From the sequence record NC_070903.1: 33,349 nucleotides of DNA; one strand, given 5' to 3'. The notes beneath the pieces were generated by a model that worked only from the letters and a program-made list of their open reading frames with translations, searched no databases and was not told the DNA's origin. The DNA is from Escherichia phage P2_AC1. Both the position numbers and the translations under genes were made by a program. Below, piece by piece: positions 1-23,921 of this stretch. Numbering within the stretch: position 1 is the stretch's first letter; each line of letters starts with the position of its first letter.

Positions 1-104
1 CGCCCGCTTCGTGGGGCGGTTTTAATGCAGTTGCATGAACACTCCAAGAGCGCGCCAGCACTGACGATAACTGACAATAAAAACGGCTTCTGACATATGC
101 ACAT

Positions 105-1022
105 TCATTCACAATCATGCATATTAAAGAACGGGTATGGATAGCGTCGTAAGATCTCATCTTCACTGTACCCCAAATAATCAGACATGAGTTTAATCGA
201 AGGTGGCGTTACAGGTTTCATAAGTAGAGGAAAACGTTCGTGCAAATCATTGAATTTAAGAATCCCTGAATCTTCTTGCATTACTCTTTTGTCAAACAGC
301 GATTCAGCATACAATGGCAACTCTTTGAGCAACAGATTAATATCAAGCAACAAAACATCTATCATAATCATTATTTGCTCAGTAATATCAATGTAATAAG
401 CTGCCTTATTACTACCTATAGCATTAACAATATCATCATTTTTAAAACGCATCGTAGGCAAAGGTGAACCTGTTGATTCAATAATCATTCCTCTATAGGT
501 GTCATCAAAATCATTCCTAACATTTAATGCAGCCAATAGGCTGTTAAACCTTCTTGCTATATCACTAACAGCAAAAGCATCCCCCCAGTTAGTAGTCTTT
601 GCTGTTTCTCTATTATTCCCTACTCCCTTTTGACTCAATATACAGGCCAACTCACTTAAATCTGATGATAGAGGAGCACCAGAAAAAACCACAACAGGAA
701 AAGCTAAAGCCCTCTCGATAGGATTTTCACTTATACTTACCCCACCATAATAATTCCCTTTAATTTGCAACAACGTTGTCATTGCAGAAAAGTAGTCATA
801 AATACATTTATTTACAACGCTTACCTTTCTTCTTTGTGCTTTAAGGTACTCCTGCCGATAAAACAACCTAGTTGCAATAAAGTAACTCAGCACAGAAGAT
901 ATAATTGGTAATACTACAGGCAGCACATAATCTTTTATGACATTAGTATTATTAACGCCTTTAATTGCATCAATAATATCCTCAACCTGAAGCTGTCCTA
1001 TTATATAGCTCGTATAATCCAT
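105..1022 (-). CDS. hypothetical cargo protein, N-terminal transmembrane anchor; no family recognised
   Basis: 305-aa ORF; ATG at 1020-1022 lies 2 nt after the stop of the upstream small ORF (tgaTAatg), suggesting coupling; hydrophobic helix at about res 33-55 (LPVVLPIISSVLSYFIATRLFY); strongly AT-rich DNA unlike backbone; last gene before the genome end. Confidence 0.6.
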   Translation of the reverse strand: MDYTSYIIGQLQVEDIIDAIKGVNNTNVIKDYVLPVVLPIISSVLSYFIATRLFYRQEYLKAQRRKVSVVNKCIYDYFSAMTTLLQIKGNYYGGVSISENPIERALAFPVVVFSGAPLSSDLSELACILSQKGVGNNRETAKTTNWGDAFAVSDIARRFNSLLAALNVRNDFDDTYRGMIIESTGSPLPTMRFKNDDIVNAIGSNKAAYYIDITEQIMIMIDVLLLDINLLLKELPLYAESLFDKRVMQEDSGILKFNDLHERFPLLMKPVTPPSIKLMSDYLGYSEDEILRRYPYPFFNMHDCE

Positions 1023-1024
1023 TA

Positions 1025-1213
1025 TCAGAAAGCCGTTATTGTTCTATTACAACGTTCAGTAGCAACTTTCACAGCATCACGCCCATCACTTAATTTAGGG
1101 TAAGAACCAATCTCTATAAAATATTGGACACCTCTTTCAATACAACCCTCAACTTCTTTTTTATTACTCTCATTACAACCAGCCAGCAACGCCCCCAAAA
1201 AGCCATAACACAA
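1025..1213 (-). CDS. small ORF (62 codons) with non-ATG (TTG) start, lipobox-like LLAGC near N-terminus; possibly coupled to downstream 305-aa gene
   Basis: Start codon read directly as TTG (rc of caa at 1211-1213); AAGGAG lies upstream but is better spaced for a TTG in another frame, so frame and start are uncertain. Confidence 0.3.
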   Translation of the reverse strand: MCYGFLGALLAGCNESNKKEVEGCIERGVQYFIEIGSYPKLSDGRDAVKVATERCNRTITAF

Positions 1214-1702
1214 ATCAGTTTTCTTTTCAATCCAAACTCCTTAACAAACACAATACAAAAACATATAAATATATTATTTTTCAAACTAAGTAAATCCCAG
1301 CGATTCATAAACCCTCTGTGTCAATCTGATGGGCATCTAACGCCTCGCTGTGCTTGTTGTTCAACGCTGCCATTCCAGAACGACTGGAGAGATTCCCTAT
1401 CGTCTATGTGATGCTGCAACTCAGGATTGACCGATATTATTAAACCACTCCATAAATACCTCTAACAATTCTCCCCGACCAACTCACTCAGCGTCATTTT
1501 TTCGTTGCCCATCATCTGCTGTAGACGAAGAACATTTCATGGAACGATTTTAATACTGATGCGTTCATAGTTGAATTCAGCACAATAGCCGTAAGCAGGC
1601 ATAATCTTCTAACATTAATAATACATGTGCATTCATATAACATCGACAATTTTAATGATTTTATCAAAATAAAAAATAACATACCCATTATAAACGATAT
1701 AC

Positions 1703-1725
1703 AGCCGCTGAAAAATAGCGGCTGC
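1703..1725 (-). terminator. candidate intrinsic terminator downstream of the TIR gene
   Basis: Inverted repeat cagccgc / gcggctg with 9-nt loop, about 50 nt past the TIR-gene stop; U-tract on the minus strand is interrupted (tatatcgttta), so weak. Confidence 0.35.
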
Positions 1726-1775
1726 GGCATTATAAGTTTATATATGCAAAATTATTTATGATTAGTCAAAATTGA

Positions 1776-2723
1776 TTATTCCATTTCATCCCGTTCTGCA
1801 TCCTCCTCATCCATCATGTCAATTAAATTTCTGGTCCGCAATCTAAGCGCACTATTGAACATATTGTTTGATGAAACCCCACAATAATTATCTAAGTGAG
1901 CGATTACTCTAGAACAATCCATTATCATTTTATTTAATGATTCAATTAACTCGCTCCTAGATGTTTCATCAATACCACGGCGAATAAATCTTCTTTTTAC
2001 ACGAATTAGTGAATGATGCATGGATAATAAATCAGAAGCTACAATTTTTAAAACAGTTTCTTTACGCCCTTCCCTGTTTATTATTTTGCTAACATATTCT
2101 TCTGGCAATAATGATGCTGGATCACGCAATAATTGGTGATTTGTTCGGCTAATATCCAGCAAACTTTCAACAATTTTGGAAAGATTTTGTATCTCAGAAG
2201 TCGAATCACCTTTTGTTTTTTTAGTGGAATCTTTATCTACAGGGTTAATATCTTGAATGTTATCTAACTCACGCTCTAAACTTGGCCACCATTGCTCGAA
2301 AGCTTTAGTTAAGCGTTCTTCAGTCAAAAATCCTGCTTGATTATTTATTGACAACATCAACTTCAAAATATCGTTCTTATCATCCGAACGAGTATACTGG
2401 AATTGTAATATTGGGCCTGTTATCTCAGATGGTTTAATTTTAAACAAGAAAGGACTAACCCGGCTCTTATCAACCTTTTTACCTAAAGCACCCGCCTCAA
2501 AATTTATCCACGGTGCATTAATATTATTTTTTGTAAGGCAAATAATCCCATAAGAAGAGTCATCAAGTTCCTTTGATATATCAGTCGCCCAGCGAGTGCC
2601 TTTATCAATATCTTCCGCTGATACGTACGGCTCAGCTACTTGAATAACATTCGGTATCCAATCCCGTAATACTTTTGCTATCTCCAGGCTGTCCTGACCT
2701 GACCAACTAATAAATATCTTCAT
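1776..2723 (-). CDS. TIR-domain protein (N-terminal TIR, about res 1-125) with C-terminal helical domain of unknown function; candidate NAD+-consuming defence effector/sensor
   Basis: 315-aa ORF, ATG 2721-2723 with AAGGT about 9 nt upstream; N-terminus MKIFISWSGQD matches the TIR beta-A motif (F-I-S-x-S-x-x-D, same spacing as FISYSEHD of Toll-like receptors); W72-x3-E76 (APWINFEAG) matches the TIR W-x-x-x-E spacing; AT-rich. Confidence 0.75.
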   Translation of the reverse strand: MKIFISWSGQDSLEIAKVLRDWIPNVIQVAEPYVSAEDIDKGTRWATDISKELDDSSYGIICLTKNNINAPWINFEAGALGKKVDKSRVSPFLFKIKPSEITGPILQFQYTRSDDKNDILKLMLSINNQAGFLTEERLTKAFEQWWPSLERELDNIQDINPVDKDSTKKTKGDSTSEIQNLSKIVESLLDISRTNHQLLRDPASLLPEEYVSKIINREGRKETVLKIVASDLLSMHHSLIRVKRRFIRRGIDETSRSELIESLNKMIMDCSRVIAHLDNYCGVSSNNMFNSALRLRTRNLIDMMDEEDAERDEME

Positions 2724-2934
2724 AATACCATACCTTGATTAAAAAAGATCCATATCTATGACGTCAATACCTGAGCACGCGGGGAAGTTATGCCTTATGG
2801 CAGAATGATTTCTTATTAAGCCCGTGTTTTTGCTACATGTAGCGATAGCTGGCAGTGAAAACACCCATTTCCACATGCAAAACAATGCATCTGATACATG
2901 CGGATTTACAATGTCAGCTAATCAAAAGTCATGT

Positions 2935-2964
2935 AAAAAAATCACCCCCTAAGGGGTGATTTTT
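2935..2964 (-). terminator. rho-independent terminator (bidirectional hairpin) ending the A-proximal cargo operon
   Basis: Perfect 8-bp stem atcacccc / ggggtgat with 4-nt loop (2941-2960), A6 on one side and T4 on the other; on the minus strand it directly follows the stop of the 185-aa gene and is followed by 6 U. Confidence 0.65.
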
Positions 2965-3520
2965 ATGCGTATACAACCTTTTCAACCTGAGTATCAGGAA
3001 GCAGCATTATAGCTTCCTCTAAATCTCTTCCTTTGACCCACTGTACTAAACTACTTGCTGTCTTTATGACCCTAACACAGAACCATACAGCAAGGACAAA
3101 TGGAAACATGTAAAGCAATAACATTAAGCTATTGAATAACAGTACATTTTCAAGTATCCGACCGGATTTAAACAGTACATCAACAACTTCTCTATCATCA
3201 CAGCGTTTGAAAACATCTATCTCACGCCGAATTTTCTGCCTTATTGCATGGTTTTCTGCCATACGCTTTTGAGCACGAAATTTGTTTGGCAACGTGAGTA
3301 AATGCAATCTATTGATAGCGTTATTCAATGAGTCATGCACAAGTGTTGCCGCTTGCATGGAAGTATCGGAACCTCCATCAATGATTTTCCTCCTAGCGAC
3401 ATCACGAAGCGCAAACAATTGGTTTCTATAATGAAGTCGGATGGACGGCAAAATGATTCGCTCGTAAATGAAGTGTGCTGCGCCTAAACCCAACAGCACA
3501 TAAAACAGCACTGTCAGCAT
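2963..3520 (-). CDS. hypothetical membrane protein (two predicted TM helices flanking a ~110-aa soluble region)
   Basis: 185-aa ORF with strong RBS (AGGAG 6 nt before ATG at 3518-3520); TM1 res 2-19, TM2 about res 129-150; starts 20 nt after the stop of the upstream 126-aa gene (operon); followed by the terminator. Confidence 0.7.
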   Translation of the reverse strand: MLTVLFYVLLGLGAAHFIYERIILPSIRLHYRNQLFALRDVARRKIIDGGSDTSMQAATLVHDSLNNAINRLHLLTLPNKFRAQKRMAENHAIRQKIRREIDVFKRCDDREVVDVLFKSGRILENVLLFNSLMLLLYMFPFVLAVWFCVRVIKTASSLVQWVKGRDLEEAIMLLPDTQVEKVVYA

Positions 3521-3540
3521 AATAACTCCTAAATAAACAA

Positions 3541-3921
3541 CTATTTATCACTTGTACCCAAGGCTTGAGTGGTCTGTCTTTGTTGATACTTTGTTTTCTC
3601 GTTACCGATTCTCTGTGCCTCGGAACTAAAACAGCGCCTCATGATTCGCGCATGTGCAGACCAAGCCAAACCCACTATTACCGAGATAGCCCAACCAACC
3701 AAGGAATGCTCCTTAAAGCCATCAACAATAGAGAAGGCTAAATTGGACAAGTCAGTTTTTGGTAACCTCCATGCAGCAATCATTAAAATAATACTGATGG
3801 TAATAGGTATCAACTGACCATTAGACATGGCTCTTATCATTACATCCCGCCACGCCTGAGCCCACGTAACCTTAACCTGATTTTTGTTGCCTTTGCCTTT
3901 GCCTTTGCCTTGCTTCCCCAT
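3541..3921 (-). CDS. hypothetical small 2-TM membrane protein with Gly/Lys-rich N-terminus
   Basis: 126-aa ORF, ATG at 3919-3921; two hydrophobic helices (about res 36-52 and 73-89); first gene after a ~330-bp non-coding gap downstream of A; the N-terminal (GK)n is encoded by a hexamer repeat, so the true start could be internal. Confidence 0.6.
   Translation of the reverse strand: MGKQGKGKGKGNKNQVKVTWAQAWRDVMIRAMSNGQLIPITISIILMIAAWRLPKTDLSNLAFSIVDGFKEHSLVGWAISVIVGLAWSAHARIMRRCFSSEAQRIGNEKTKYQQRQTTQALGTSDK
3886..3913. repeat. in-frame hexanucleotide tandem repeat (ctttgc x3 plus partial copies) encoding the GKGKGKG tract
   Basis: Direct reading of ttgcctttgcctttgcctttgccttgc at the 5' end of the 126-aa ORF. 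Confidence 0.5.
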
Positions 3922-4250
3922 TTTACCCAGCCGCCGGTTACTTTTGAGGGCGCAAATAGTACAACTCGCTATCGTATTCAGTCAAAAAAGCTTTTCAGAT
4001 TTTTGACAAAAGCCAGCTTAATCCTTGATTACTTCTCCTTCTCAATACAAGGTGTATAGCAAAGAGCGCCCATCAATCAAGCAAAATCTCCTTCCTTTGG
4101 CTTCATTTATCACCAAAACACAACATATAGAGTACATCTTCCCATTAAATAACTATACGAGAGTGCAACGAGGAAACATTCTAATCATAGAACAAGATCT
4201 TTAGATGCTTAACGCTGCCCCCTGTAAATAATTTTCGCAACTGGCGACGT

Positions 4251-6572
4251 TCACTCCATTACTGCTGAGAATCCCCGCCACTCATCAGCGACCGGATACG
4301 TGAATTTTTTCCCGTCGTAATTTACAATTGCTCCACGCGCCAGCGCCTCAAGCTCCCATCGCTGCGGCCTGATACCGTTCTGAGCAAGGTCAACGCGGAT
4401 ACGGGTAATTTGCATTCGTTCTGACCGGGTCAGTCTGGCCGATGGTGCCATTTCATGCTGTTTTAACGGGCTTCCGTTTCTTTGCTGACGGTTTGGTCTT
4501 CTCAGACCTTGTTTTAATGCGCCCCTGAGCGCCCTCACGACCTCCGGGTCATTCCATTCAATAACACCGTCATCAACCAGATTAAGCACTGCTGCGGCGT
4601 GCTCAGAAGGTGTGGGAGCCGGTAACGAAGTATCACCACCGGTGAGCTTTCCACAGTTATTGACAGGACTCCGAGGCGCGGCGATGCCGCTTTTTAAAGT
4701 CAAAGGCTCAACGACCGGCACTTTCGGCACAATGCGCCAGTCCGTCGTTCTGGTGATATGAATATGACGCGCGCCGAGATGCGGCGCGTAAATGCCGACC
4801 ACTCTCTCGACTTCTTCCTCGTACTCGTTAACGTCATCCGACGGGCTACGGGCAACCCTGACAGTCTGACAATCGCGCGGGACATTTGCCCCACCCTGCG
4901 CGCTGATATACAACGCAAAATCACCACTGTCTGCAGCAGCGCGAGCAGCCTCGACGCGTTCGTCAAACTCATCAGCAATACTGACGCCGCGAGGCAATTT
5001 GCGTAGTTCACGGTAAGCCCCCATTGTCGGCAGGCCAACCGTTTTAAATTGCGGGATGCGCCACGTTGACGCCCATGCGGTAACAGCCGCCGCTGTGTCT
5101 TTCAGCGGTCTGCCGGTATCGTTATCGAGCTGACCATCCAGTGCATAGCCGTCGATGTTTTTTGAAATGTATTTCGCGATATATCCCGCAGCACCGCCCC
5201 GGTTAAGGTGTTTTGCCTGAAAACGGTTTCGCGCGGCTCCTCTTTCGTCGCCATCCTCTTTGAGCGCATAGCGACGCATGATTTCGATAATCTGGTTGCG
5301 CTGGCGTGGATTACAAAAAAGCATCATATGCCAGTGCGGCGTTCCGTCGTGGTGTGGCTCGACGACACGCAAACCGTAGACCTGTAAATCATTATCCTTG
5401 AATGCCGTGCGCATCAGGCTCCAGATACGGCAGAGATAACGCTGCGCATCCTTTGGATTAAATGCCTCATCGTTCCAGCCGTGATTAAGCTGAACGGTTT
5501 TACTTTCGCCTTTTCCGACCTGACGTGTCGGGTGATACTTTGACGGCGCGGTCAGCGTGATAAACATCCCCACATCACCCTCTGCGGCGGCGTAACGCTC
5601 AATACCGGCAATGGTGTTCATCAGCTCCATCCGGCGAATTTCTGGATTAGAAATACTGCCCATCACCTTACTGATAAGGTCGATGCGCTCGCCAGTTTCC
5701 CTGTTTTCAAGGTCACACGATTTAAGAAATTCCAGATTTGCCTGGCGGCGCGCACGCACATCACGAATGGCATGTTTACTGGCATAAGGAGAACGGTCTT
5801 TATTGACCTCCCCGACAGCAATCAGTAACGCCTCATGCCAGCGCATACGCTGGCCTTTAAGCTGATGAGTCCACCACTCATCGTTAAACAGGCGGGTAAT
5901 GGCAGAATATGCCTGCCTCGTGGTCATCTGCCCTTTACGGTATTTTTTCCAGTAGAGAGGGGAAATATTGAAAGCTCGTGCAGCGCCAGCAACATGACCA
6001 TACAGGTGAGCCTGCGCCTCATCCGTAAACAGCGATTCTTTCTCGCCATGCGCATCCACCCAGGCATCGCTGAGTTCCTCATACATCATGAAAAGCTGCG
6101 ATGAGATACGGGCGGCAAATTTTTTCAGCTCCTTGTCATTCATCCCCGGCAGGCGCGCATAGTGGTCACGCTCTGCCAGAAACAGCAACGACGCGTTGGT
6201 GTTCATTTCATGGCGCTGATTAACGCGCTCAATGCGCGGCCATAAACGACGCTGAAAAGTGGATGTGAGGAAATAAAACCCGTGCACCGGGCTTTTATTG
6301 CGCCGGATGTAGTCATAGCGTGAAGTAAACAGCGAGCGCAAAAAGTAAGGCAGGCGGTTAATCGTGGATAAAACACCTTGCACCTGACGCATCTCGTCAC
6401 GTGTAAGGGGTCTTTCGCGCCCGACAGCCTCGCGTGGCGCGTTCCATGCATAAGCACCGGTAAACGCCTTACCGGTGCCTGCGGCAAATGCTGACGGAGG
6501 GACAAAACGCCCGGAGGCTTTAACGGCCATGTGAGCCAAAAGCCTCTGAACAACGCTTGCTGAGTTGCTCAA
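4251..6572 (-). CDS. A: replication initiation endonuclease gpA (rolling-circle initiator)
   Basis: 773-aa ORF; sequence (MAVKASGRFVPPSAF..., HHDGTPHWHMMLF, YIAKYISKNIDGY) matches P2 gpA as remembered; true start probably the internal Met at about 6530 (~759 aa). Confidence 0.95.
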   Translation of the reverse strand: MSNSASVVQRLLAHMAVKASGRFVPPSAFAAGTGKAFTGAYAWNAPREAVGRERPLTRDEMRQVQGVLSTINRLPYFLRSLFTSRYDYIRRNKSPVHGFYFLTSTFQRRLWPRIERVNQRHEMNTNASLLFLAERDHYARLPGMNDKELKKFAARISSQLFMMYEELSDAWVDAHGEKESLFTDEAQAHLYGHVAGAARAFNISPLYWKKYRKGQMTTRQAYSAITRLFNDEWWTHQLKGQRMRWHEALLIAVGEVNKDRSPYASKHAIRDVRARRQANLEFLKSCDLENRETGERIDLISKVMGSISNPEIRRMELMNTIAGIERYAAAEGDVGMFITLTAPSKYHPTRQVGKGESKTVQLNHGWNDEAFNPKDAQRYLCRIWSLMRTAFKDNDLQVYGLRVVEPHHDGTPHWHMMLFCNPRQRNQIIEIMRRYALKEDGDERGAARNRFQAKHLNRGGAAGYIAKYISKNIDGYALDGQLDNDTGRPLKDTAAAVTAWASTWRIPQFKTVGLPTMGAYRELRKLPRGVSIADEFDERVEAARAAADSGDFALYISAQGGANVPRDCQTVRVARSPSDDVNEYEEEVERVVGIYAPHLGARHIHITRTTDWRIVPKVPVVEPLTLKSGIAAPRSPVNNCGKLTGGDTSLPAPTPSEHAAAVLNLVDDGVIEWNDPEVVRALRGALKQGLRRPNRQQRNGSPLKQHEMAPSARLTRSERMQITRIRVDLAQNGIRPQRWELEALARGAIVNYDGKKFTYPVADEWRGFSAVME

Positions 6573-6795
6573 CCTGCGCGTTTAAATCAGCAAAAGATTT
6601 TGCGCTTCCGGTCAGAATATCGTGATGCATCATGCCGGAAACGAGCTGGCTTAATTTCGGGTAATAACCAACCACCGCCAGCCATTCCTGACCGGCGTTT
6701 TTACCGCTTTCCGCTCTCTTTTTCTCGTGGAGAATAAACTGAAAGCTGTCACTGGTAACGACATAACGTTCGCCAATTTCAATACGAATACTCAT
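6520..6795 (-). CDS. P2 orf83-like early-region protein, function unknown
   Basis: 91-aa ORF in the conserved position immediately upstream of A, overlapping the neighbouring stop/start. Confidence 0.7.
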   Translation of the reverse strand: MSIRIEIGERYVVTSDSFQFILHEKKRAESGKNAGQEWLAVVGYYPKLSQLVSGMMHHDILTGSAKSFADLNAQVEQLSKRCSEAFGSHGR

Positions 6796-7016
6796 GCCGT
6801 TCTCCGGTAATGTTTGTTTTTTGCTTCAAAGACTGACTGGCAGGAAACACAACGCGTGGCTGAAGGATAAGCCGCACGACGGGCAGCAGGTATTGGCGCG
6901 TCACACTCTTCGCAAACCAGCGCAGAAGCTCCGCAATGTTTTACCCTTGCCGCGTTAATCTGGCGCTCCAGTAATTCAGCCTGTTGTTCCTGAATAAAAT
7001 CTACGTTGTCCGGCAT
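6792..7016 (-). CDS. TraR/DksA-family C4 zinc-finger protein (P2 orf82-like)
   Basis: 74-aa ORF with CEEC-x17-CVSC four-cysteine motif; conserved position between B and A. Confidence 0.75.
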   Translation of the reverse strand: MPDNVDFIQEQQAELLERQINAARVKHCGASALVCEECDAPIPAARRAAYPSATRCVSCQSVFEAKNKHYRRTA

Positions 7017-7321
7017 TACCAGTTCCTTTTGTCGTTCAGTTTTTTAAATTCATCAGCGCAATAGCTGGCGATTTCTGTAGTTAATTTCGTCAGTTCATCC
7101 ACGGAGGAAATTTGCTTGTGAAATACAGCGCGTTTAACAAGTAAATTGACCACATCAGACAGGAGGTTTAATTCATTCTGATAAATCGCGATAACAGATT
7201 CAGTTATGTCGCGTTTTTCTTTATCAAGACAAAGTTGAATAAGAGACAAATCGCCATTTTTCATAACGGCGATTTTTAAGGCGTTATTCAGTAATACAAC
7301 TGAATGAGAACAGGACATCAA
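7016..7321 (-). CDS. P2 orf81-like early-region protein, function unknown
   Basis: 101-aa ORF, start/stop overlap with neighbours (operon packing). Confidence 0.7.
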
Positions 7322-7575
7322 AGTACCTCCCCGCGAGACAATCCGATATTGTGAAATTTTTCCGACTCCTGACTGAGCAGCTCGACTATCTCCACGCGGG
7401 ATAACTCCGCCTTTGTGATGTGGCGAATCATGGCGTCAAGATGAGAAGAAAAGCGCGTCGCCGCGTCGGCCTGTGCTTCGGTTCTGGCCTGTTGCAGCAG
7501 TAATGCGTATTTACCGCACTGATTTTCAGAAACTGTATGCATGACTTTCTCCAAGCAAAAAAAAGCCCCGCACAA
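7318..7575 (-). CDS. P2 orf80-like early-region protein, function unknown
   Basis: 85-aa ORF; true start may be the internal Met (MHTVSENQ...). Confidence 0.6.
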
Positions 7576-7605
7576 TTAAGTGCGTTAAAAACTCTGGTTA
7601 ATTAC

Positions 7606-8106
7606 TTAATGCAGATATTGCTCTGGTTTTACCGATGTCAGAATTGTCGGTGCATACTCAAACAGACTGAATAATTCACGTAATGCACGGAATAAAGCAT
7701 CACGCCAGTAACATGATTCTTCATTAATTCGCCAGTATGGCTGGTTGAATTCTTTTTCTGTCAATCTGGCATGCATAAATAAAGTACGCCGCTGACTGAC
7801 TGTTAAAAAACTAATATATGCATACTCACTTGCACCGACCTGACGGCGTTTTGAGAATGCCCCACGCAATTCATCAATTGCACAAACCAGCCGTTCACGT
7901 TCGACATCGTTCATTTCTTCGAAACGCATCGTTGCGTGACGTTGTTTTAACTGCGCATGGAAGCAAACCGTTAGCCGTTCACGTTCCATCATCTGATTAT
8001 AATAATCACATGTCTCCTGCCAGCGAGGGACGGCCAGATGCTTACCAATTATCCGGCGCATAGCTGCTGGCTGTTTTTCGACGAGATTAAGTGTCATCAC
8101 TGTCAT
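7606..8106 (-). CDS. B: gpB, replication protein (helicase-loader-like)
   Basis: 166-aa ORF MTVMTLNLVEKQPAAMRRIIGKHLAVPRWQ... near-identical to P2 gpB as remembered. Confidence 0.9.
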   Translation of the reverse strand: MTVMTLNLVEKQPAAMRRIIGKHLAVPRWQETCDYYNQMMERERLTVCFHAQLKQRHATMRFEEMNDVERERLVCAIDELRGAFSKRRQVGASEYAYISFLTVSQRRTLFMHARLTEKEFNQPYWRINEESCYWRDALFRALRELFSLFEYAPTILTSVKPEQYLH

Positions 8107-8300
8107 TTCCAGCCCCTCCGGCTTTTCAGAAAGGTCAGAGCCTTTTTTAACGGACTCTGTTTTTTGGTACGGATAATGATTCCCTTGCGTCCCTTCCCGT
8201 GGGTGATGGTGAAGTCAATCGCCCTGGGGCTTTCGTTACGCAGTAACTGAGCAATACAACGCGGCTCATTCATAATCACAACCCCATCCACAAAAGCCAT
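8103..8300 (-). CDS. small early ORF between cox and B (P2 orf78 position)
   Basis: 65-codon ORF overlapping the cox 3' end and the B start; position conserved in P2 but sequence not recognised. Confidence 0.45.
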   Translation of the reverse strand: MAFVDGVVIMNEPRCIAQLLRNESPRAIDFTITHGKGRKGIIIRTKKQSPLKKALTFLKSRRGWK

Positions 8301-8563
8301 GCATCACGCTGTTCAACCGGTCGGTTATAAAACGCATCACGTACAGCGCGATTAAACTCAGGAATGAAAACCCATTTTTCACCGGCACGAGCCTTCGGTT
8401 TGCAAGGATCACGCAATTCAATAATTGGTAATTTATTTGCCTTCACCATTTCACTGACTGCTGTCTTTGGCTTCCCTAATAAATCAGCAAATTTATCCAC
8501 ATGAACCGCATCAAGCGGATACTGAATCACATAATTTTCAGCGTCCATATATGGTACCCTCAT
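8276..8563 (-). CDS. cox: Cox-like excisionase / early-operon transcriptional regulator
   Basis: First gene of the early operon, divergent from C; C-terminal KLPIIELRDP...AGEKWVFIPEFN...RDAWLLWMGL resembles P2 Cox as remembered; N-terminal part differs; true start may be the internal Met. Confidence 0.75.
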   Translation of the reverse strand: MRVPYMDAENYVIQYPLDAVHVDKFADLLGKPKTAVSEMVKANKLPIIELRDPCKPKARAGEKWVFIPEFNRAVRDAFYNRPVEQRDAWLLWMGL

Positions 8564-8684
8564 AGGATCCAGCCCTTTCTAAACCACTCAAAACCGTTTA
8601 GACGCTGGTTTATTCTCAAATCAATGGAACCTATATAGGTTCCAGTTTTGAGGGAATTTAGTCCCTATATAGGCACCATGTCAA
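8564..8684. promoter_or_regulatory. divergent Pe/Pc immunity switch region with two operator-like palindromes
   Basis: 121-bp gap between divergent cox (-) and C (+); CCTATATAGG occurs twice (8630-8639, 8664-8673), the first within an 18-bp perfect palindrome GGAACCTATATAGGTTCC. Confidence 0.6.
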
Positions 8685-8978
8685 ATGAAATTAAGCGAAA
8701 AGATTAAGGCCTTGCGTGAGGCTGAAGGGCTAAGCCAATCAAAATTCTGTGAAATCATAGAGTTACCGCTAAGCACACTTAAAAAATATGAAGGAGGAAA
8801 CTTTGAACCCGGTGGCACAGCTTTGCTAAAAATCACTATGCATCCCACATTCCAAAAATATGCTCTATGGCTTATGACAGATAAAACCGCGCCGGACGCA
8901 GGACAAATCGCACCGGCTCTCGCGCACATTGGGCCAGAGTCAACAGAGTCCAACCACTCCGCGAAAAGGATTGGCTAA
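8685..8978 (+). CDS. C: immunity repressor C (HTH, XRE-like)
   Basis: 97-aa ORF; C-terminal QIAPALAH and YALWLMTDKTAP resemble P2 C as remembered; N-terminal helix-turn-helix region differs. Confidence 0.85.
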   Translation: MKLSEKIKALREAEGLSQSKFCEIIELPLSTLKKYEGGNFEPGGTALLKITMHPTFQKYALWLMTDKTAPDAGQIAPALAHIGPESTESNHSAKRIG

Positions 8979-17234: not shown

Positions 17235-17828
17235 TCAATTATGTAAATCTTTTGTTTCAGGTTTTTTGAGGTGTTGTGACAACAAATGGCTATAGCGTTT
17301 AAGCAAAATATTAGAAAGATTAAACTCATTCATGAAGTGTTCTTCTAATAAGTAACCATCAATATCAACTTTAATATCATTATTACTTTTCATCTTCTGT
17401 AACGTAGATTTTACACGCTCCAGCAGGATGCTTTGCTCATGGTAATAGTCCATAAGAAGAGTAACATCCTCTTTATCAAGTTTACTTAATTCACTGAAGT
17501 AGGCTTTAAACACTTTATCAGTCTGGTTTAATGCAACCTGTAAGCGAGGCCCTCCTAATGATTTGACATTAATGGCAAAAGGCTCGCCAACAAAATGCTC
17601 CGAATTTTCGTCAAAGCCAATATGTCTCGTTTTATCAAGAAAAGTGAGAGCGCGATGGTTATTAGCGATTTCATATGCAAACATTGTTCTGATACTGTCC
17701 CTCTCAGCCTCCATGCTTATATCATCACGGTGATTTGTATAAAATATATTTCCAACAAAGAGAACCATAGCAAGAATCACTGAACTTGCCTCCCAGTTAA
17801 TATTTTTTAATCGTCGCTTAGTAAACAT
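17235..17828 (-). CDS. hypothetical membrane-anchored cargo protein in the Z/fun variable locus
   Basis: 197-aa ORF, AAGGTG RBS 5 nt before ATG; N-terminal signal-anchor helix (about res 14-36), remainder soluble; AT-rich island 16906-18049 between G and FI. Confidence 0.6.
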   Translation of the reverse strand: MFTKRRLKNINWEASSVILAMVLFVGNIFYTNHRDDISMEAERDSIRTMFAYEIANNHRALTFLDKTRHIGFDENSEHFVGEPFAINVKSLGGPRLQVALNQTDKVFKAYFSELSKLDKEDVTLLMDYYHEQSILLERVKSTLQKMKSNNDIKVDIDGYLLEEHFMNEFNLSNILLKRYSHLLSQHLKKPETKDLHN

Positions 17829-18049: not shown

Positions 18050-18577
18050 TTATTGCGGCATTTCCGGCCATTCGGGATTTGCAGGATCCACACGACTGAC
18101 CAGAACGCTGTAGCGTTCCCATGCTTCCAGTCGGCTGCGTTCCTCATCCGTCGCCATATTCAGCTTGACAGCGCGTTCCAGCGGCAAAATCACGGATTCA
18201 ACTTCGGAAAGTAAAGCTGCTTTTTGTGATTCTGCCTGTTGCTCCTGTTCATCTGCCGTATAAATCCGCTTAATCACGGCACCATCCTTAAACATCCATT
18301 TACCTGAGTCATCAGCACGTCGGTTGGAGGTAATATCAGGAACCTCGACAACGCTGAAACCTTCAGGGTTAAGCGTTGAAGCATCTCTGGTGATGCCGAC
18401 AATTATATTATTCTCGTCGTAAACAATCTTTATCGTGTCTTCCTGAAAATTACTTACTTCCTCATACCAGTTTTTTCCCTCTTCGGACCATAACCAGATA
18501 ACATCAAAATTTTTTGTCAGTTGATATTGGGCAACAGTTTTTGGATTACCCGCAGTAATATTTTTTAAATGCTGCAT
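18050..18577 (-). CDS. G: tail fibre assembly protein gpG
   Basis: 175-aa ORF immediately downstream of H; P2 gpG length. Confidence 0.9.
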
Positions 18578-23135: not shown

Positions 23136-23921
23136 ATGGTCAGCTATAATGTGACTAATGTGTGGGGGCTAATCGTTTTTTTCCTTTGTAGCTTTGCAGT
23201 ATTAGCATTTTTTAGCTTTGGTAAAAGTAACCTTATGAGGCTTATTGCACATTATTTCAATTTTGGATATTCAGACAAAAAATTAAAAAGACTTGACCGC
23301 GAGTGGCGCGACATTCAACTATTTAAAATAATTAACGGAATCAATGTATCAGGCATTGAAAATGTGAGAATGATACAGCAGGGACTGATTGATGGAAAAC
23401 TAAAAACATCGTATTTTTTCCTTACTCGCATCTGGGGTGACATAACAAAACCACCACACATAATTAAAACAATAATTGTAATTCTGACCAGTATTTTTTA
23501 CATTCTCCTCGCATGTTACATACACAACAAACAATCCGTTATAGTAAGGGATGCCATAGGCATACCATATAAAAACATGATGTACTATGTTTATAGTGAC
23601 AAAGTTCTTTTATCCTTCAAAAATAAAGCAGTTGAATTTAATAAAACTTATAGCCTTGCCGATTGCAAGAAACTGCAAAACGTATTTATAAAAGACACAC
23701 TTCCTGAGATCGCCTGCAATAAGCTCTTACAGCTAAACGAGGAGGACTCCGAATGGTTAAGCCAGGAGATTAAAGATAATAACAGTCACAAAAAAGCATT
23801 ATTAATACTATCCCTCGTCTATTTCACTTCAGGTCTGGTTATATTCCTGTCATATACAAAATTCTTTTACGCCAATAAGAAGGTTTTAGAATACAAAGCA
23901 TCAAATAAAAATCACTCATAA
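23136..23921 (+). CDS. hypothetical polytopic membrane cargo protein in the S-V variable locus
   Basis: 261-aa ORF on the strand opposite the late operons; AAGGAGA RBS 5 nt before ATG; at least 3 hydrophobic helices (res ~10-28, ~112-132, ~222-242); AT-rich island 23071-23940. Confidence 0.6.
   Translation: MVSYNVTNVWGLIVFFLCSFAVLAFFSFGKSNLMRLIAHYFNFGYSDKKLKRLDREWRDIQLFKIINGINVSGIENVRMIQQGLIDGKLKTSYFFLTRIWGDITKPPHIIKTIIVILTSIFYILLACYIHNKQSVIVRDAIGIPYKNMMYYVYSDKVLLSFKNKAVEFNKTYSLADCKKLQNVFIKDTLPEIACNKLLQLNEEDSEWLSQEIKDNNSHKKALLILSLVYFTSGLVIFLSYTKFFYANKKVLEYKASNKNHS

What the first reader, a model, noticed from the sequence alone, without database searches (positions are those of the whole stretch)
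105..1213. Second, very AT-rich cargo module next to the genome end: small ORF plus 305-aa membrane-anchored protein of unknown family
The last gene before the genome end encodes a 305-aa protein with one N-terminal TM helix and a large soluble domain I cannot assign to any family. It is preceded, 2 nt upstream, by a 62-codon ORF that can only start on TTG and carries a lipobox-like LLAGC. The DNA is the most AT-rich in the window, arguing for recent acquisition separate from the TIR module. Position, composition and membrane anchoring fit a single-protein abortive-infection or exclusion effector, but function is pure inference.
Basis: inference. Interest (0 to 1): 0.7.

Follow-up and report, generated by a model that had tools for sequence, protein, structure and literature searches.

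The report
Untested membrane-protein cassette in P2 hotspot
Next to the end of this P2-like phage genome sits a separate two-gene cargo cassette: a small lipoprotein gene, broken here by a one-base deletion, and a membrane-anchored helical protein from a widespread unnamed family that travels on phages, satellites and plasmids and is probably, but not demonstrably, an anti-phage gene.

Summary
Both ORFs exist exactly as described (305 aa at 105-1022, 62 aa at 1025-1213, minus strand). The window is a complete cos-to-cos P2-like genome, identical where comparable to phage AC1 of Rousset 2022.

The 62-codon TTG ORF is the remnant of a 68-aa lipoprotein gene. A 1-nt deletion in a T5G6 run separates its start, ribosome-binding site and signal peptide from the lipobox. 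Thirteen of fifteen complete E. coli genomes carry two annotated genes there, consistent with an intact copy.

The 305-aa protein belongs to a real, unnamed family: 171 clusters, no Pfam or PADLOC model. The confident AF2 model (pLDDT 88) has one TM helix and a long helical bundle, with no specific structural relative.

The pair recurs in three diverged versions, always in the P2 gpA-cos hotspot, with or without the TIR genes. It is therefore an independent cassette. Distant relatives are solitary genes at prophage ends, in a satellite, on a plasmid and beside a type I RM system.

DefensePredictor lists it as a predicted, untested defence gene. The validated AC1 TIR clone excludes it yet reproduces the lysogen's phenotype.

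The "most AT-rich" claim is wrong. An anti-phage role is plausible but unproven, and the module is probably crippled in this genome.

The parts
105..1022 (-). Gene for a 305-aa single-pass membrane protein of an unnamed family (phrog_21267). It has an acidic N-terminal tail, a TM helix and a roughly 250-aa helical-bundle domain.
   Evidence: ORF. phrog_21267 E 1.4e-149. 171 homologous clusters. AF2 pLDDT 88.3, pTM 0.81. dN/dS 0.065 against the MS16-3 allele.
861..926 (-). Codons for the transmembrane helix (about residues 33-54). Predicted orientation is N-out / C-in.
   Evidence: Hydropathy maximum 2.04 at residue 33. In 48 of 60 family members there are more K/R on the C-terminal flank, and the N-tail is net acidic. 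The TM is part of continuous helix 28-97 in the model. Orientation is inferred from the positive-inside rule.
1025..1213 (-). The 62-codon ORF of the finding. It is the out-of-frame 3' remnant of a lipoprotein gene and holds the lipobox LAGC (Cys codon at 1175-1177) and the 49-aa mature domain with two further invariant Cys.
   Evidence: Alignment with intact alleles. phrog_32041 E 1.9e-30. AF2 gives a helical hairpin, core pLDDT about 85.
1114..1230 (-). Authentic 5' part of the lipoprotein gene. The TTG start is at 1230-1228 and the product is MKRKLICVMAFWG. After the deletion this frame runs into a TAG at 1116-1114, giving a 38-aa nonsense product.
   Evidence: Translation from the TTG start. 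In MS16-3 the same position is an ATG, and the homologues begin MKRK/MNKN.
1237..1242 (-). Shine-Dalgarno sequence AAGGAG, 6 nt upstream of the authentic TTG start.
   Evidence: Sequence. An equivalent AAGGAG/AAGGAA precedes the lipoprotein start in L003 and L013.
1191..1201 (-). T5G5 homopolymer junction carrying the 1-nt deletion. Intact alleles have 11 nt here: T5G6 in D7 and T7G4 in MS16-3.
   Evidence: The G5 allele is also present in E. coli M21816 (L004) and two IMG/VR contigs (L008, L009). The G6 allele is in D7 (L001).
1..1380 (.). Extent of the block shared at 97% identity with E. coli MS16-3, where it lies in the same hotspot without the TIR genes. Position 1380 is the upstream boundary of the cassette.
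   Evidence: blastn of window 1-4500 against the fetched loci. Annotation of L002.
1389..1413 (+). Binding site of the reverse primer used to clone the validated '2TM + 1TM + TIR' system of phage AC1 (pFD240). It marks the end of the tested fragment, which excludes the module.
   Evidence: Rousset 2022 Table S2. Exact match. The forward primer matches at 4161-4186, and 399 nt of the insert are identical.
1701..1725 (-). Terminator-like GC-rich hairpin just downstream of the TIR-TM gene, between the two modules. A promoter-like site overlaps it at 1714-1687.
   Evidence: Consensus scan only; the number of sites does not exceed the shuffled expectation.
1776..3921 (-). Neighbouring, independent, known defence system Rst_2TM_1TM_TIR: 2TM protein 3541-3921, 1TM protein 2963-3520, TIR-TM protein 1776-2723.
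   Evidence: PADLOC hits with E 7e-58, 3e-75 and 3e-118. Pfam TIR_2.

Best explanation
Window 1-1380 is a self-contained two-gene cargo cassette in the P2 gpA-cos variable hotspot. It is independent of the adjacent TIR system.

Gene 1 encodes a 68-aa lipoprotein precursor. Its 49-aa mature part is predicted to be a helical hairpin with two invariant Cys positioned to staple it. Most diverged homologues carry Asp at +2, so it is probably tethered to the periplasmic face of the inner membrane.

Gene 2 encodes a 305-aa single-pass inner-membrane protein. It probably has a short acidic periplasmic N-tail and a cytoplasmic elongated helical bundle. It belongs to a widespread, unnamed family carried as accessory cargo by mobile elements.

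The most likely role is protection of the lysogen against other phages. I take the 305-aa protein to be the core sensor and effector, acting at the inner membrane in an abortive-infection-like way by disturbing the membrane. I take the lipoprotein to be a clade-specific periplasmic accessory. Both of these roles are inferred.

In this genome the lipoprotein gene is inactivated by a 1-nt deletion. The 305-aa gene has no Shine-Dalgarno sequence of its own and abuts the lipoprotein stop codon, so its translation is probably reduced as well. The module is therefore likely crippled here.

Shown: gene structure, the frameshift, family membership, cassette independence and mobile-element contexts. 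Inferred: topology, localisation, anti-phage role and mechanism.
For: Cassette independence:
- The same block occurs without TIR genes in MS16-3.
- Diverged pairs (57% and 53% identity) sit in P2 hotspots in L003 and L013. In L013 the pair is the only cargo called between gpA and the portal gene.
- The validated TIR clone ends at 1389.
- hhalign finds no relation to the TIR-module proteins.

Lipoprotein:
- Intact alleles have a canonical signal peptide and lipobox: MKRKLICVMAFWGALLAGC, MNKNVFYMAVITLFLLSGC, MNKNTFYIIVIATFLLSGC.
- Three Cys are invariant.
- The +2 residue is Asp in L003, L013 and L015.
- The predicted fold is a helical hairpin.

Frameshift:
-.
- One of the fifteen complete E. 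coli genomes with the locus has a single annotated gene there; fourteen have two.

The 305-aa family:
- 171 clusters, 79 of them at E<=1e-10, mostly full length.
- Conserved polar positions K88, Y91, R104, N160, R169, E215 and D222.
- Confident all-alpha model.
- Purifying selection, dN/dS 0.065.
- Predicted topology.

Mobile-element and defence-type contexts of solitary relatives:
- Directly after a gpJ-like tail-tip gene at a prophage end in Pseudoalteromonas.
- The last gene of a capsid-encoding, satellite-like element in E. coli.
- An Erwinia conjugative plasmid, next to a resolvase.
- Beside type I RM hsdM/hsdS genes.
- Beside an integrase and IS21.

Literature:
- The P2 gpA-portal hotspot is a reservoir of defence systems (PMC9122126, PMC9519451, PMC13586616).
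- DefensePredictor Table S10 lists WP_023140581.1 as a 'predicted novel defense gene' with mean log-odds 4.84. The paralogous E. coli cluster WP_016230959 scores 10.85.

Loss of translational coupling.
Against: - There is no experimental test of this family.
- The AC1 lysogen protected only against lambda and LF82_P8 in an eight-phage panel, and the TIR clone alone reproduced that result. The module, at least in its frameshifted form, therefore added no detectable phenotype.
- The DefensePredictor score of 4.84 is only just above the authors' cutoff of 4. Overall validation in that study was 45% and rose with the score.
- The fold is a generic helical bundle with no catalytic or pore-forming signature, so the proposed mechanism has no structural support.
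- Topology rests only on the positive-inside rule.
- No convincing promoter was found inside the cassette.
- The window-type lipoprotein has Asn, not Asp, at +2.
Confidence: 0.4

Rival explanations
1. The pair is an envelope-level superinfection-exclusion device rather than an abortive system. The inner-membrane protein and its periplasmic lipoprotein would block genome entry, or periplasmic transit, of incoming phages without killing the cell. Analogies are T4 Imm/Sp, P22 SieA, HK97 gp15 and the lipoproteins Llp, Cor and Ltp.
For: - A temperate-phage accessory locus carries both an inner-membrane protein and a periplasmic lipoprotein.
- Asp at +2 in most homologues would place the lipoprotein on the inner membrane, next to its partner.
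- The pairing is conserved through about 45% sequence divergence.
Against: - The positive-inside rule puts about 250 of the 305 residues in the cytoplasm, which is unusual for entry blockers.
- Distant relatives lack any lipoprotein partner.
- There is no sequence or fold similarity to known exclusion proteins.
- The AC1 lysogen showed no extra exclusion phenotype, although it carries the broken allele.
Confidence: 0.2
2. The module is a lysogenic-conversion or host-fitness moron unrelated to phage defence. Examples would be an envelope, stress or serum-resistance function like lambda Bor, or a modulator of the phage's own lysis or of envelope physiology.
For: - A small lipoprotein plus a membrane protein at a prophage end resembles classical morons.
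- There is no defence-family match.
- No phenotype was seen in the published lysogen panel beyond that of the TIR system.
- A lipoprotein with the same C-terminal domain occurs in a GC-rich bacterium with no adjacent family member.
Against: - Relatives recur in slots that are typically occupied by defence genes: the P2 hotspot, a satellite terminus and the flank of an RM system.
- Two family clusters are scored as defensive by DefensePredictor.
- Most P2-hotspot cargo tested so far has proved to be defensive.
Confidence: 0.15
3. In this particular genome the module is simply a decaying, unexpressed remnant, whatever the intact cassette does elsewhere.
For: - The frameshift removes the lipoprotein.
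- The 305-aa gene has no Shine-Dalgarno sequence of its own, and the shifted frame stops 92 nt upstream of its ATG.
- No strong promoter was found.
- The lysogen shows no added phenotype.
Against: - The 305-aa ORF is fully intact, with 0-2 substitutions relative to alleles that have an intact partner.
- The G5 allele persists in at least four independent assemblies.
- Relatives function, if at all, as solitary genes, so loss of the lipoprotein need not abolish activity.
Confidence: 0.12
4. The two genes are accessory components of the neighbouring 2TM-1TM-TIR system, for example an extra effector or regulator.
For: - The genes are adjacent to and co-directional with the TIR genes in the window and in 14 of the 15 complete E. 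coli genomes with the locus.
- The five genes are listed together as one locus in Rousset 2022 Table S5.
Against: - The pair occurs without TIR genes in MS16-3, L003 and L013.
- The three-gene clone lacking the pair reproduces the lysogen phenotype.
- A terminator-like hairpin and about 560 nt separate the two modules.
- There is no homology to the TIR-module proteins.
Confidence: 0.04
5. The pair is a toxin-antitoxin-like addiction module, with the membrane protein as toxin and the lipoprotein as antidote, and has no direct anti-phage role.
For: - The two genes are tightly coupled (2-nt spacing).
- A membrane protein paired with a small partner is reminiscent of small-lipoprotein toxin/antidote pairs.
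Against: - Loss of the putative antidote by frameshift is tolerated in several lineages while the 305-aa ORF stays intact.
- Most family members have no partner.
- The two proteins are predicted to lie largely in different compartments.
Confidence: 0.04

Closest known systems
Cargo of the P2 gpA-cos/portal hotspot (tin, old, PARIS, the Rst_ and PD- systems; Rousset 2022, Vassallo 2022, Moura de Sousa 2026)
   Same: The genomic slot is identical. The cargo is AT-rich relative to the phage core. It behaves as a swappable cassette with discrete boundaries and is found with different neighbours in different P2-like prophages.
   Different: Neither protein matches any PADLOC model of known or candidate systems. 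No phenotype has been reported.
Rst_2TM_1TM_TIR (the neighbouring system, validated from phage AC1)
   Same: It occupies the same hotspot and strand, and it also uses small membrane proteins.
   Different: There is no sequence relationship. The pair occurs without it. The pair was not part of the validated clone.
DefensePredictor 'predicted novel defense gene' clusters WP_023140581 and WP_016230959 (Science 2026, Table S10)
   Same: WP_023140581.1 is the product of the 918-nt gene annotated at this position in E. coli D7; that gene differs from the window's by 2 nt and 1 residue. The paralogue is 27% identical over 291 residues. Both clusters are scored above the authors' strict cutoff.
   Different: This is a machine-learning prediction only. 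Neither cluster appears in the tables of cloned or validated units. The lipoprotein partner and the frameshift are not noted there.
Phage exclusion proteins of the envelope (T4 Imm and Sp, P22 SieA, HK97 gp15, T5 Llp, phi80/N15 Cor, TP-J34 Ltp)
   Same: These are phage-encoded inner-membrane proteins and/or lipoproteins expressed to protect the infected or lysogenic cell. This comparison rests on my own knowledge of those systems.
   Different: No sequence or fold similarity was detected. The bulk of the 305-aa protein is predicted to be cytoplasmic.
Two-component spanins (Rz / Rz1; P2 LysB / LysC)
   Same: A phage gene pair encoding a small lipoprotein and a single-pass inner-membrane protein.
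   Different: - The pair is not in the lysis cassette.
- The gene order is reversed, with the lipoprotein first.
- The membrane partner is about twice the size of an i-spanin and is predicted N-out/C-in.
- Homologues carry Asp at +2, an inner-membrane retention signal, whereas o-spanins go to the outer membrane.
Four-helix-bundle sensor domains (4HB_MCP of Tar/Tsr, PcaY, McpS; NarQ and TorS sensors) and DUF3829 lipoproteins
   Different: - The hits are at the level of de novo designed bundles, so the resemblance is generic.
- There is no Pfam match in any of 60 family members.
- There is only one TM helix and no output domain.
- The bundle is probably cytoplasmic.

Membership tests
Rst_2TM_1TM_TIR (PADLOC 2TM-TIR / 1TM-TIR / TIR-TM) | Profile match to one of the three component families | tested here: not met
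   Neither the 305-aa nor the 62-aa protein gives a PADLOC hit at E<=1. The three neighbouring genes hit at 7e-58 to 3e-118.
Rst_2TM_1TM_TIR (PADLOC 2TM-TIR / 1TM-TIR / TIR-TM) | Obligate co-occurrence with the TIR gene, and requirement for the phenotype | tested here: not met
   The pair is found without TIR genes in L002, L003 and L013. The published active clone spans window 4186-1389 only.
Bacterial lipoproteins (signal peptidase II substrates) | N-terminal signal peptide with a positively charged n-region, a hydrophobic h-region and a lipobox [LVI][ASTVI][GAS]C | tested here: met
   The feature is met in the intact alleles: MKRKLICVMAFWGALLAGC (D7), MKRK...LLVGC (MS16-3) and MNKN...LLSGC (L003, L013). 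It is not met by the window's own 62-aa ORF, which begins MCYGFLGALLAGC with no n-region, because of the frameshift.
Bacterial lipoproteins (signal peptidase II substrates) | Actual lipidation and membrane localisation (the +2 sorting rule) | not testable with these tools
   Only the +2 residue can be read: Asn in the window type and Asp in L003, L013 and L015. Testing needs globomycin or palmitate labelling and membrane fractionation.
PHROG families phrog_21267 and phrog_32041 (unknown function) | Full-length profile match | tested here: met
   E 1.4e-149 over profile positions 1-291 of 291, and E 1.9e-30 over positions 11-74 of 77.
Two-component spanins (Rz/Rz1-like) | Located in the lysis cassette; i-spanin gene first, with the o-spanin gene embedded, overlapping or following it; i-spanin N-in/C-out with a periplasmic coiled coil; o-spanin targeted to the outer membrane | tested here: not met
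   The pair lies in the gpA-cos hotspot with the lipoprotein gene upstream. Predicted topology is N-out/C-in (inference). Asp at +2 in homologues signals inner-membrane retention.
HEPN (suggested by DefensePredictor's weak HHblits hit to 'tm_HEPN VI-B') | Conserved Rx4-6H catalytic motif on a four-helix core | tested here: not met
   No His is among the invariant or near-invariant columns of the 60- and 12-sequence alignments. The published hit covers only 9% of the query at probability 55. There is no HEPN Pfam hit in 60 members.
4HB_MCP / four-helix-bundle sensor domains | Pfam 4HB_MCP-type profile match; a periplasmic bundle between two TM helices, coupled to an output domain | tested here: not met
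Anti-phage defence system (functional class) | Reduces phage plating or propagation when expressed | not testable with these tools
   Only indirect evidence exists: mobile-element and hotspot context and DefensePredictor scores. The published AC1 lysogen data show no phenotype beyond that of the TIR system.

The most novel reading that the evidence does not exclude
The 305-aa protein would represent a new, widespread, single-gene membrane-anchored anti-phage family carried by P2-like phages, lambdoid prophages, phage satellites and plasmids. In the enterobacterial P2 clade it would have recruited an inner-membrane-tethered, disulfide-stapled mini-lipoprotein. That partner would couple a periplasmic event, such as phage tail penetration or genome injection, through the short N-terminal tail and TM helix to a cytoplasmic helical-bundle effector. 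This would amount to a trans-envelope phage sensor.
Probability: 0.12. Interest if true: 0.75.

Novelty: new variant of a known kind. Interest (0 to 1): 0.42.

Why it matters
If the intact cassette is defensive, it would add a defence family with no recognisable enzymatic or pore-forming domain. Its fold would have no specific solved relative, and it would be spread across phages, satellites and plasmids of several gammaproteobacterial genera.

The optional inner-membrane lipoprotein partner would be a handle on how events in the periplasm are reported to the cytoplasm during infection. Natural G5 (broken) and G6 (intact) alleles in otherwise near-identical prophages provide a ready-made genetic comparison.

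For annotation there are three practical points:
- The 94-aa RefSeq model of the small gene is over-extended.
- The window's 62-codon ORF should be called a pseudogene fragment.
- The five-gene 'TIR locus' listed in earlier catalogues is really two independent cassettes.

Tried and rejected
- **Curated family searches.** Pfam, NCBIfam and PADLOC scans of both proteins, and a Pfam scan of 60 family members, gave only sub-threshold noise: UBA_2, FLAD1_M, Rpp14, Sdh5, CbiX and CNNM.
- **PDB sequence-profile search.** It returned only noise at E 0.2-0.7, the top hits being a 41-residue TM-helix chain aligned to the query's TM segment.
- **Part of the TIR system.** Rejected.
- **Spanin pair.** Rejected on location, gene order, size and sorting signal.
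- **HEPN.** Rejected for lack of a conserved His.
- **Programmed -1 frameshifting or phase variation at the T5G5 run.** Considered. A tRNA-Gly could re-pair on G GGG, but the neighbouring Trp codon cannot. There is no canonical slippery heptamer, and the tract is short for slipped-strand switching. I treat it as a plain mutation; this is inference.
- **Sequencing error as the cause of the frameshift.** Rejected, because four independent assemblies share it.
- **Composition as evidence for separate acquisition.** Rejected.
- **Structured RNA or repeats in 1-4400.** None found. A possible shared junction motif (1358-1371 versus 4206-4219) did not hold up on alignment.
- **tblastn against the phage collection.** It found no copy with either the window protein or P0006.
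- **Profile-based scans of genome contigs.** These failed for the broad alignments. The one successful scan returned only two loci.
- **Literature searches by accession.** These found nothing in main texts.
Full report
**What the window is.** The 33,349-nt window is a complete linear P2-like (Peduovirus) genome in the reverse of the standard P2 orientation.
- Its last bases are the reverse complement of the P2 cos sequence. In prophages the sequence continues directly from the window's end, across cos, into window position 1.
- The replication gene A ends near 4250.
- Everything between gene A and position 1 therefore lies in the variable gpA-cos/portal hotspot. Published work identifies this hotspot as a reservoir of anti-phage systems (PMC9122126, PMC9519451, PMC13586616).
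- The three genes at 3541-3921, 2963-3520 and 1776-2723 are the known Rst_2TM_1TM_TIR system (PADLOC E 7e-58, 3e-75 and 3e-118).
- The primers and the first 399 nt of plasmid pFD240, which Rousset et al. used to validate this system from phage AC1, match the window exactly at 4186-3788, 4161-4186 and 1389-1413. The window is therefore AC1 or a near-identical phage.

**Checking the observation.** The ORFs are as described: a 305-aa ORF at 105-1022 (-) and a 62-aa ORF at 1025-1213 (-). The small ORF's only possible start is TTG, it contains LLAGC, and it ends 2 nt before the large gene's ATG.
- The large protein has one strongly hydrophobic segment at about residues 33-54.
- The claim that this is the most AT-rich DNA in the window is wrong. 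Its GC is 0.359. The TIR-TM gene has 0.357, the intervening spacer 0.349, and two other islands 0.357-0.359. The minimum lies at 1435-2543, at 0.337.

**The small ORF is a broken lipoprotein gene.** I aligned the region with the same locus in E. coli D7 and MS16-3.
- The window lacks one base in a T5G6 run at 1191-1201.
- In the intact alleles an AAGGAG Shine-Dalgarno sequence (window 1242-1237) precedes a TTG start (an ATG in MS16-3) at 1230. That start opens a 68-codon gene encoding MKRKLICVMAFWGALLAGC|NESNKKEV..., a textbook lipoprotein signal peptide and lipobox.
- In the window this frame runs into a TAG at 1116-1114 after 38 codons. The finding's 62-codon ORF is the out-of-frame remainder. 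Its N-terminus, MCYGFLGALLAGC, lacks an n-region, so it could not serve as a signal peptide.
- The G5 allele is not a read error. It is shared by E. coli M21816 and two IMG/VR contigs that are 99.7-99.96% identical over 4.5 kb.
- It is the minority allele. Of the 15 complete E. coli genomes with the locus, only M21816 lacks an annotated small gene; sequence confirms G5 there and an intact G6 run in D7. The intact protein cluster was seen on 297 contigs.
- RefSeq's 94-aa model (MNRWDLL...) is an over-extension to an upstream ATG.
- The mature 49-aa part has two further invariant Cys (C24 and C55 in the 62-aa numbering). Its C-terminus, ATERCNRTxTAF, is nearly invariant.
- AF2 predicts a helical hairpin with core pLDDT about 85 and an overall mean of 72.
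- Three diverged homologues carry Asp at +2, the classical inner-membrane retention signal. The window type has Asn.

**The 305-aa protein.**
- *Curated libraries.* There is no hit in Pfam, NCBIfam or PADLOC. The protein does match phrog_21267 end to end.
- *Family size.* A word-indexed search found only two clusters. An exhaustive HMMER scan of 1.84 billion representatives found 171 clusters at E<=1e-3 and 79 at E<=1e-10. Most listed hits are 270-320 aa and align end to end.
- *Family annotation.* None of 60 members has a Pfam domain, and no PDB sequence is related.
- *Conserved motifs.* These include KDYxFP at the membrane entry, LxxIKxNY, NPxxRA, NYN...RN and IDLTExxIxxxD. The invariant or near-invariant residues are K88, Y91, P101, R104, N160, R169, E215 and D222. 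No His is conserved.
- *Structure.* AF2 with the 60-sequence alignment is confident (pLDDT 88.3, pTM 0.81). The model has a short N-terminal helix and a 70-residue helix (28-97) that forms the TM segment and continues into a bundle with helices 149-184 and 204-242.
- *Topology.* In 48 of 60 members the C-terminal flank of the TM helix has more K/R than the N-terminal flank, and the N-tail is net acidic. The positive-inside rule therefore places the bundle in the cytoplasm and the roughly 30-residue tail in the periplasm. This is inference.
- *Selection.* Against the MS16-3 allele the gene shows 10 nucleotide changes but only 2 amino-acid changes, giving dN/dS 0.065.

**An independent cassette.**
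- The block 1-1380 is 97% identical to a block in E. coli MS16-3. There it follows DUF3850 and another small gene instead of the TIR genes.
- A version 57% identical (L003) and one 53% identical (L013, E. coli strain with locus tags HVV53) again pair a lipoprotein (MNKN...LLSGC|D...) with the membrane protein in a P2 hotspot.
- In L013 the pair is the only cargo called between gpA and the portal gene.
- hhalign finds no relation to the TIR-module proteins.
- The pair is thus conserved through about 45% divergence and moves as a unit, independently of the TIR system. Rousset's Table S5 lists the five genes as one locus, but they are two cassettes.

**Relatives elsewhere are solitary accessory genes on mobile elements.**
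- In Pseudoalteromonas, a relative lies directly after a gpJ-like tail-tip gene at the end of a prophage.
- In E. coli, a 311-aa paralogue (27% identity, E 3e-26) is the last gene of a small element that encodes a primase, SSB, a major capsid protein and a head-decoration protein. That element is inserted in the capsid gene of a lambdoid prophage. I read it as a capsid-forming satellite, which is inference from the annotation. No lipoprotein gene lies upstream of the paralogue.
- In Erwinia pyri, a relative sits on a conjugative plasmid beside a resolvase.
- Other relatives lie beside type I RM hsdM/hsdS genes and beside an integrase and IS21.
- Named members come from E. coli, Salmonella, E. 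albertii, Ewingella, Serratia and Acinetobacter.

**What the literature says.**
- DefensePredictor (Science 2026) Table S10 lists WP_023140581.1, the D7 allele, as a 'predicted novel defense gene'. Its mean log-odds is 4.84 (range 3.83-5.98) against a strict cutoff of 4.
- The paralogous cluster WP_016230959 scores 10.85 (range 9.0-13.1).
- Neither cluster appears in the tables of cloned or validated units. Overall validation in that study was 45% and rose with the score.
- In Rousset 2022 the AC1 lysogen protected only against lambda and LF82_P8 from the eight-phage panel. The three-gene TIR clone, which excludes the module, reproduced that phenotype. The G5 allele of the module therefore contributes nothing detectable in that assay.

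**How it most likely works.** I commit, at about 40%, to the following model.
- The 305-aa protein is the core of an anti-phage module acting at the inner membrane. Its cytoplasmic bundle would be the sensing or regulatory part, and its TM helix the membrane-active part, in an abortive-infection-like way.
- In the P2 clade, an inner-membrane-tethered mini-lipoprotein would act as a periplasmic accessory that contacts the N-terminal tail.
- In this genome the lipoprotein is lost. The 305-aa gene has no Shine-Dalgarno sequence of its own and normally abuts the lipoprotein stop codon (TGAtaATG). The shifted frame now ends 92 nt upstream of its ATG, so its translation is probably reduced as well. 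That would explain the silent phenotype.

Rivals, in order:
- Non-abortive exclusion of DNA entry (0.2).
- A non-defence conversion function (0.15).
- A dead remnant in this genome (0.12; this is not exclusive of the others).
- A TIR accessory (0.04).
- An addiction module (0.04). This one is disfavoured because loss of the putative antidote is tolerated.

**Verdict.**
The module is separate cargo, and a defence role is plausible and has independently been predicted by others.
- However, the small ORF is a pseudogene fragment, the function is untested, and this copy is probably impaired.
- Unknown genes in this hotspot are expected. The value of the finding lies in three things: a sizeable uncharacterised family, its unusual lipoprotein partnership, and a natural broken/intact allele pair that makes it easy to test.

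Noticed in passing
window 1-33349: The window is a full cos-to-cos P2-like genome in reverse orientation. It matches exactly the primers and 399 nt of the insert published for phage AC1 (Rousset 2022, pFD240, ERZ3656369). No record in the GenBank phage collection searched covers this hotspot: the best match covers 7% of window 1-4500.
   Followed up: yes
window 17235-17828 (-): An AT-rich island (GC about 0.36) holds an orphan 197-aa ORF with no Pfam or PADLOC hit. It lies just downstream of the tail-fibre assembly gene (18050-18577, Caudo_TAP). This is the position of the second P2 defence hotspot (the Z/fun locus) described by Vassallo 2022.
   Followed up: partly
window 23136-23921 (+): A second AT-rich island (GC about 0.36) lies inside the late-gene region. 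It holds an orphan 261-aa ORF on the opposite strand to its neighbours, with no Pfam or PADLOC hit.
   Followed up: partly
window 1114-1308 (-); L001 6966-7250: RefSeq annotates the small gene as 94 aa starting at an upstream ATG (MNRWDLL...). The Shine-Dalgarno sequence and the homologues show that the real start is the TTG/ATG giving MKRK... (68 aa). In the window the same upstream ATG opens a spurious 64-aa ORF.
   Followed up: yes
L003 1808-3109: In the 57%-identical version of the cassette, a further 433-aa gene lies between the pair and the portal gene. It gives a weak PADLOC hit to DzbB (Dazbog, E 2e-4) and a weak Pfam MauJ hit.
   Followed up: partly
L002 4674-5675: In E. coli MS16-3 an extra 333-aa hypothetical gene (no Pfam or PADLOC hit) lies between the portal gene and the cos-proximal end of the shared block. 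This places it on the other side of cos from the hotspot.
   Followed up: no
L025 / L026 (E. coli MDR_56, SC475) 1-8900: A small element encodes an Icd-like protein, a DUF4222 protein, a primase, SSB, a major capsid protein, a head-decoration protein and an HTH regulator. It is inserted in the major capsid gene of a lambdoid prophage, leaving a 5'-truncated capsid pseudogene. The 311-aa paralogue of the finding's protein is its terminal gene. In SC475 a 'putative phage abortive infection protein' lies at the other end.
   Followed up: partly
L015 232-666: A lipoprotein (MRQAILIAPILLMGC|DSS...) with the same C-terminal domain (CIERG...IGSYP...ATERCNRTTTAF) occurs on a short contig from a GC-rich organism. 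No member of the 305-aa family is adjacent, so the mini-lipoprotein domain also exists outside the pair.
   Followed up: no
window 1-19 (+): A GC-rich hairpin followed by TTTT lies immediately inside cos. It reads as a terminator on the plus strand, that is, for transcription entering from the portal side in the circular or prophage form. It is not a terminator for the module's own strand.
   Followed up: no
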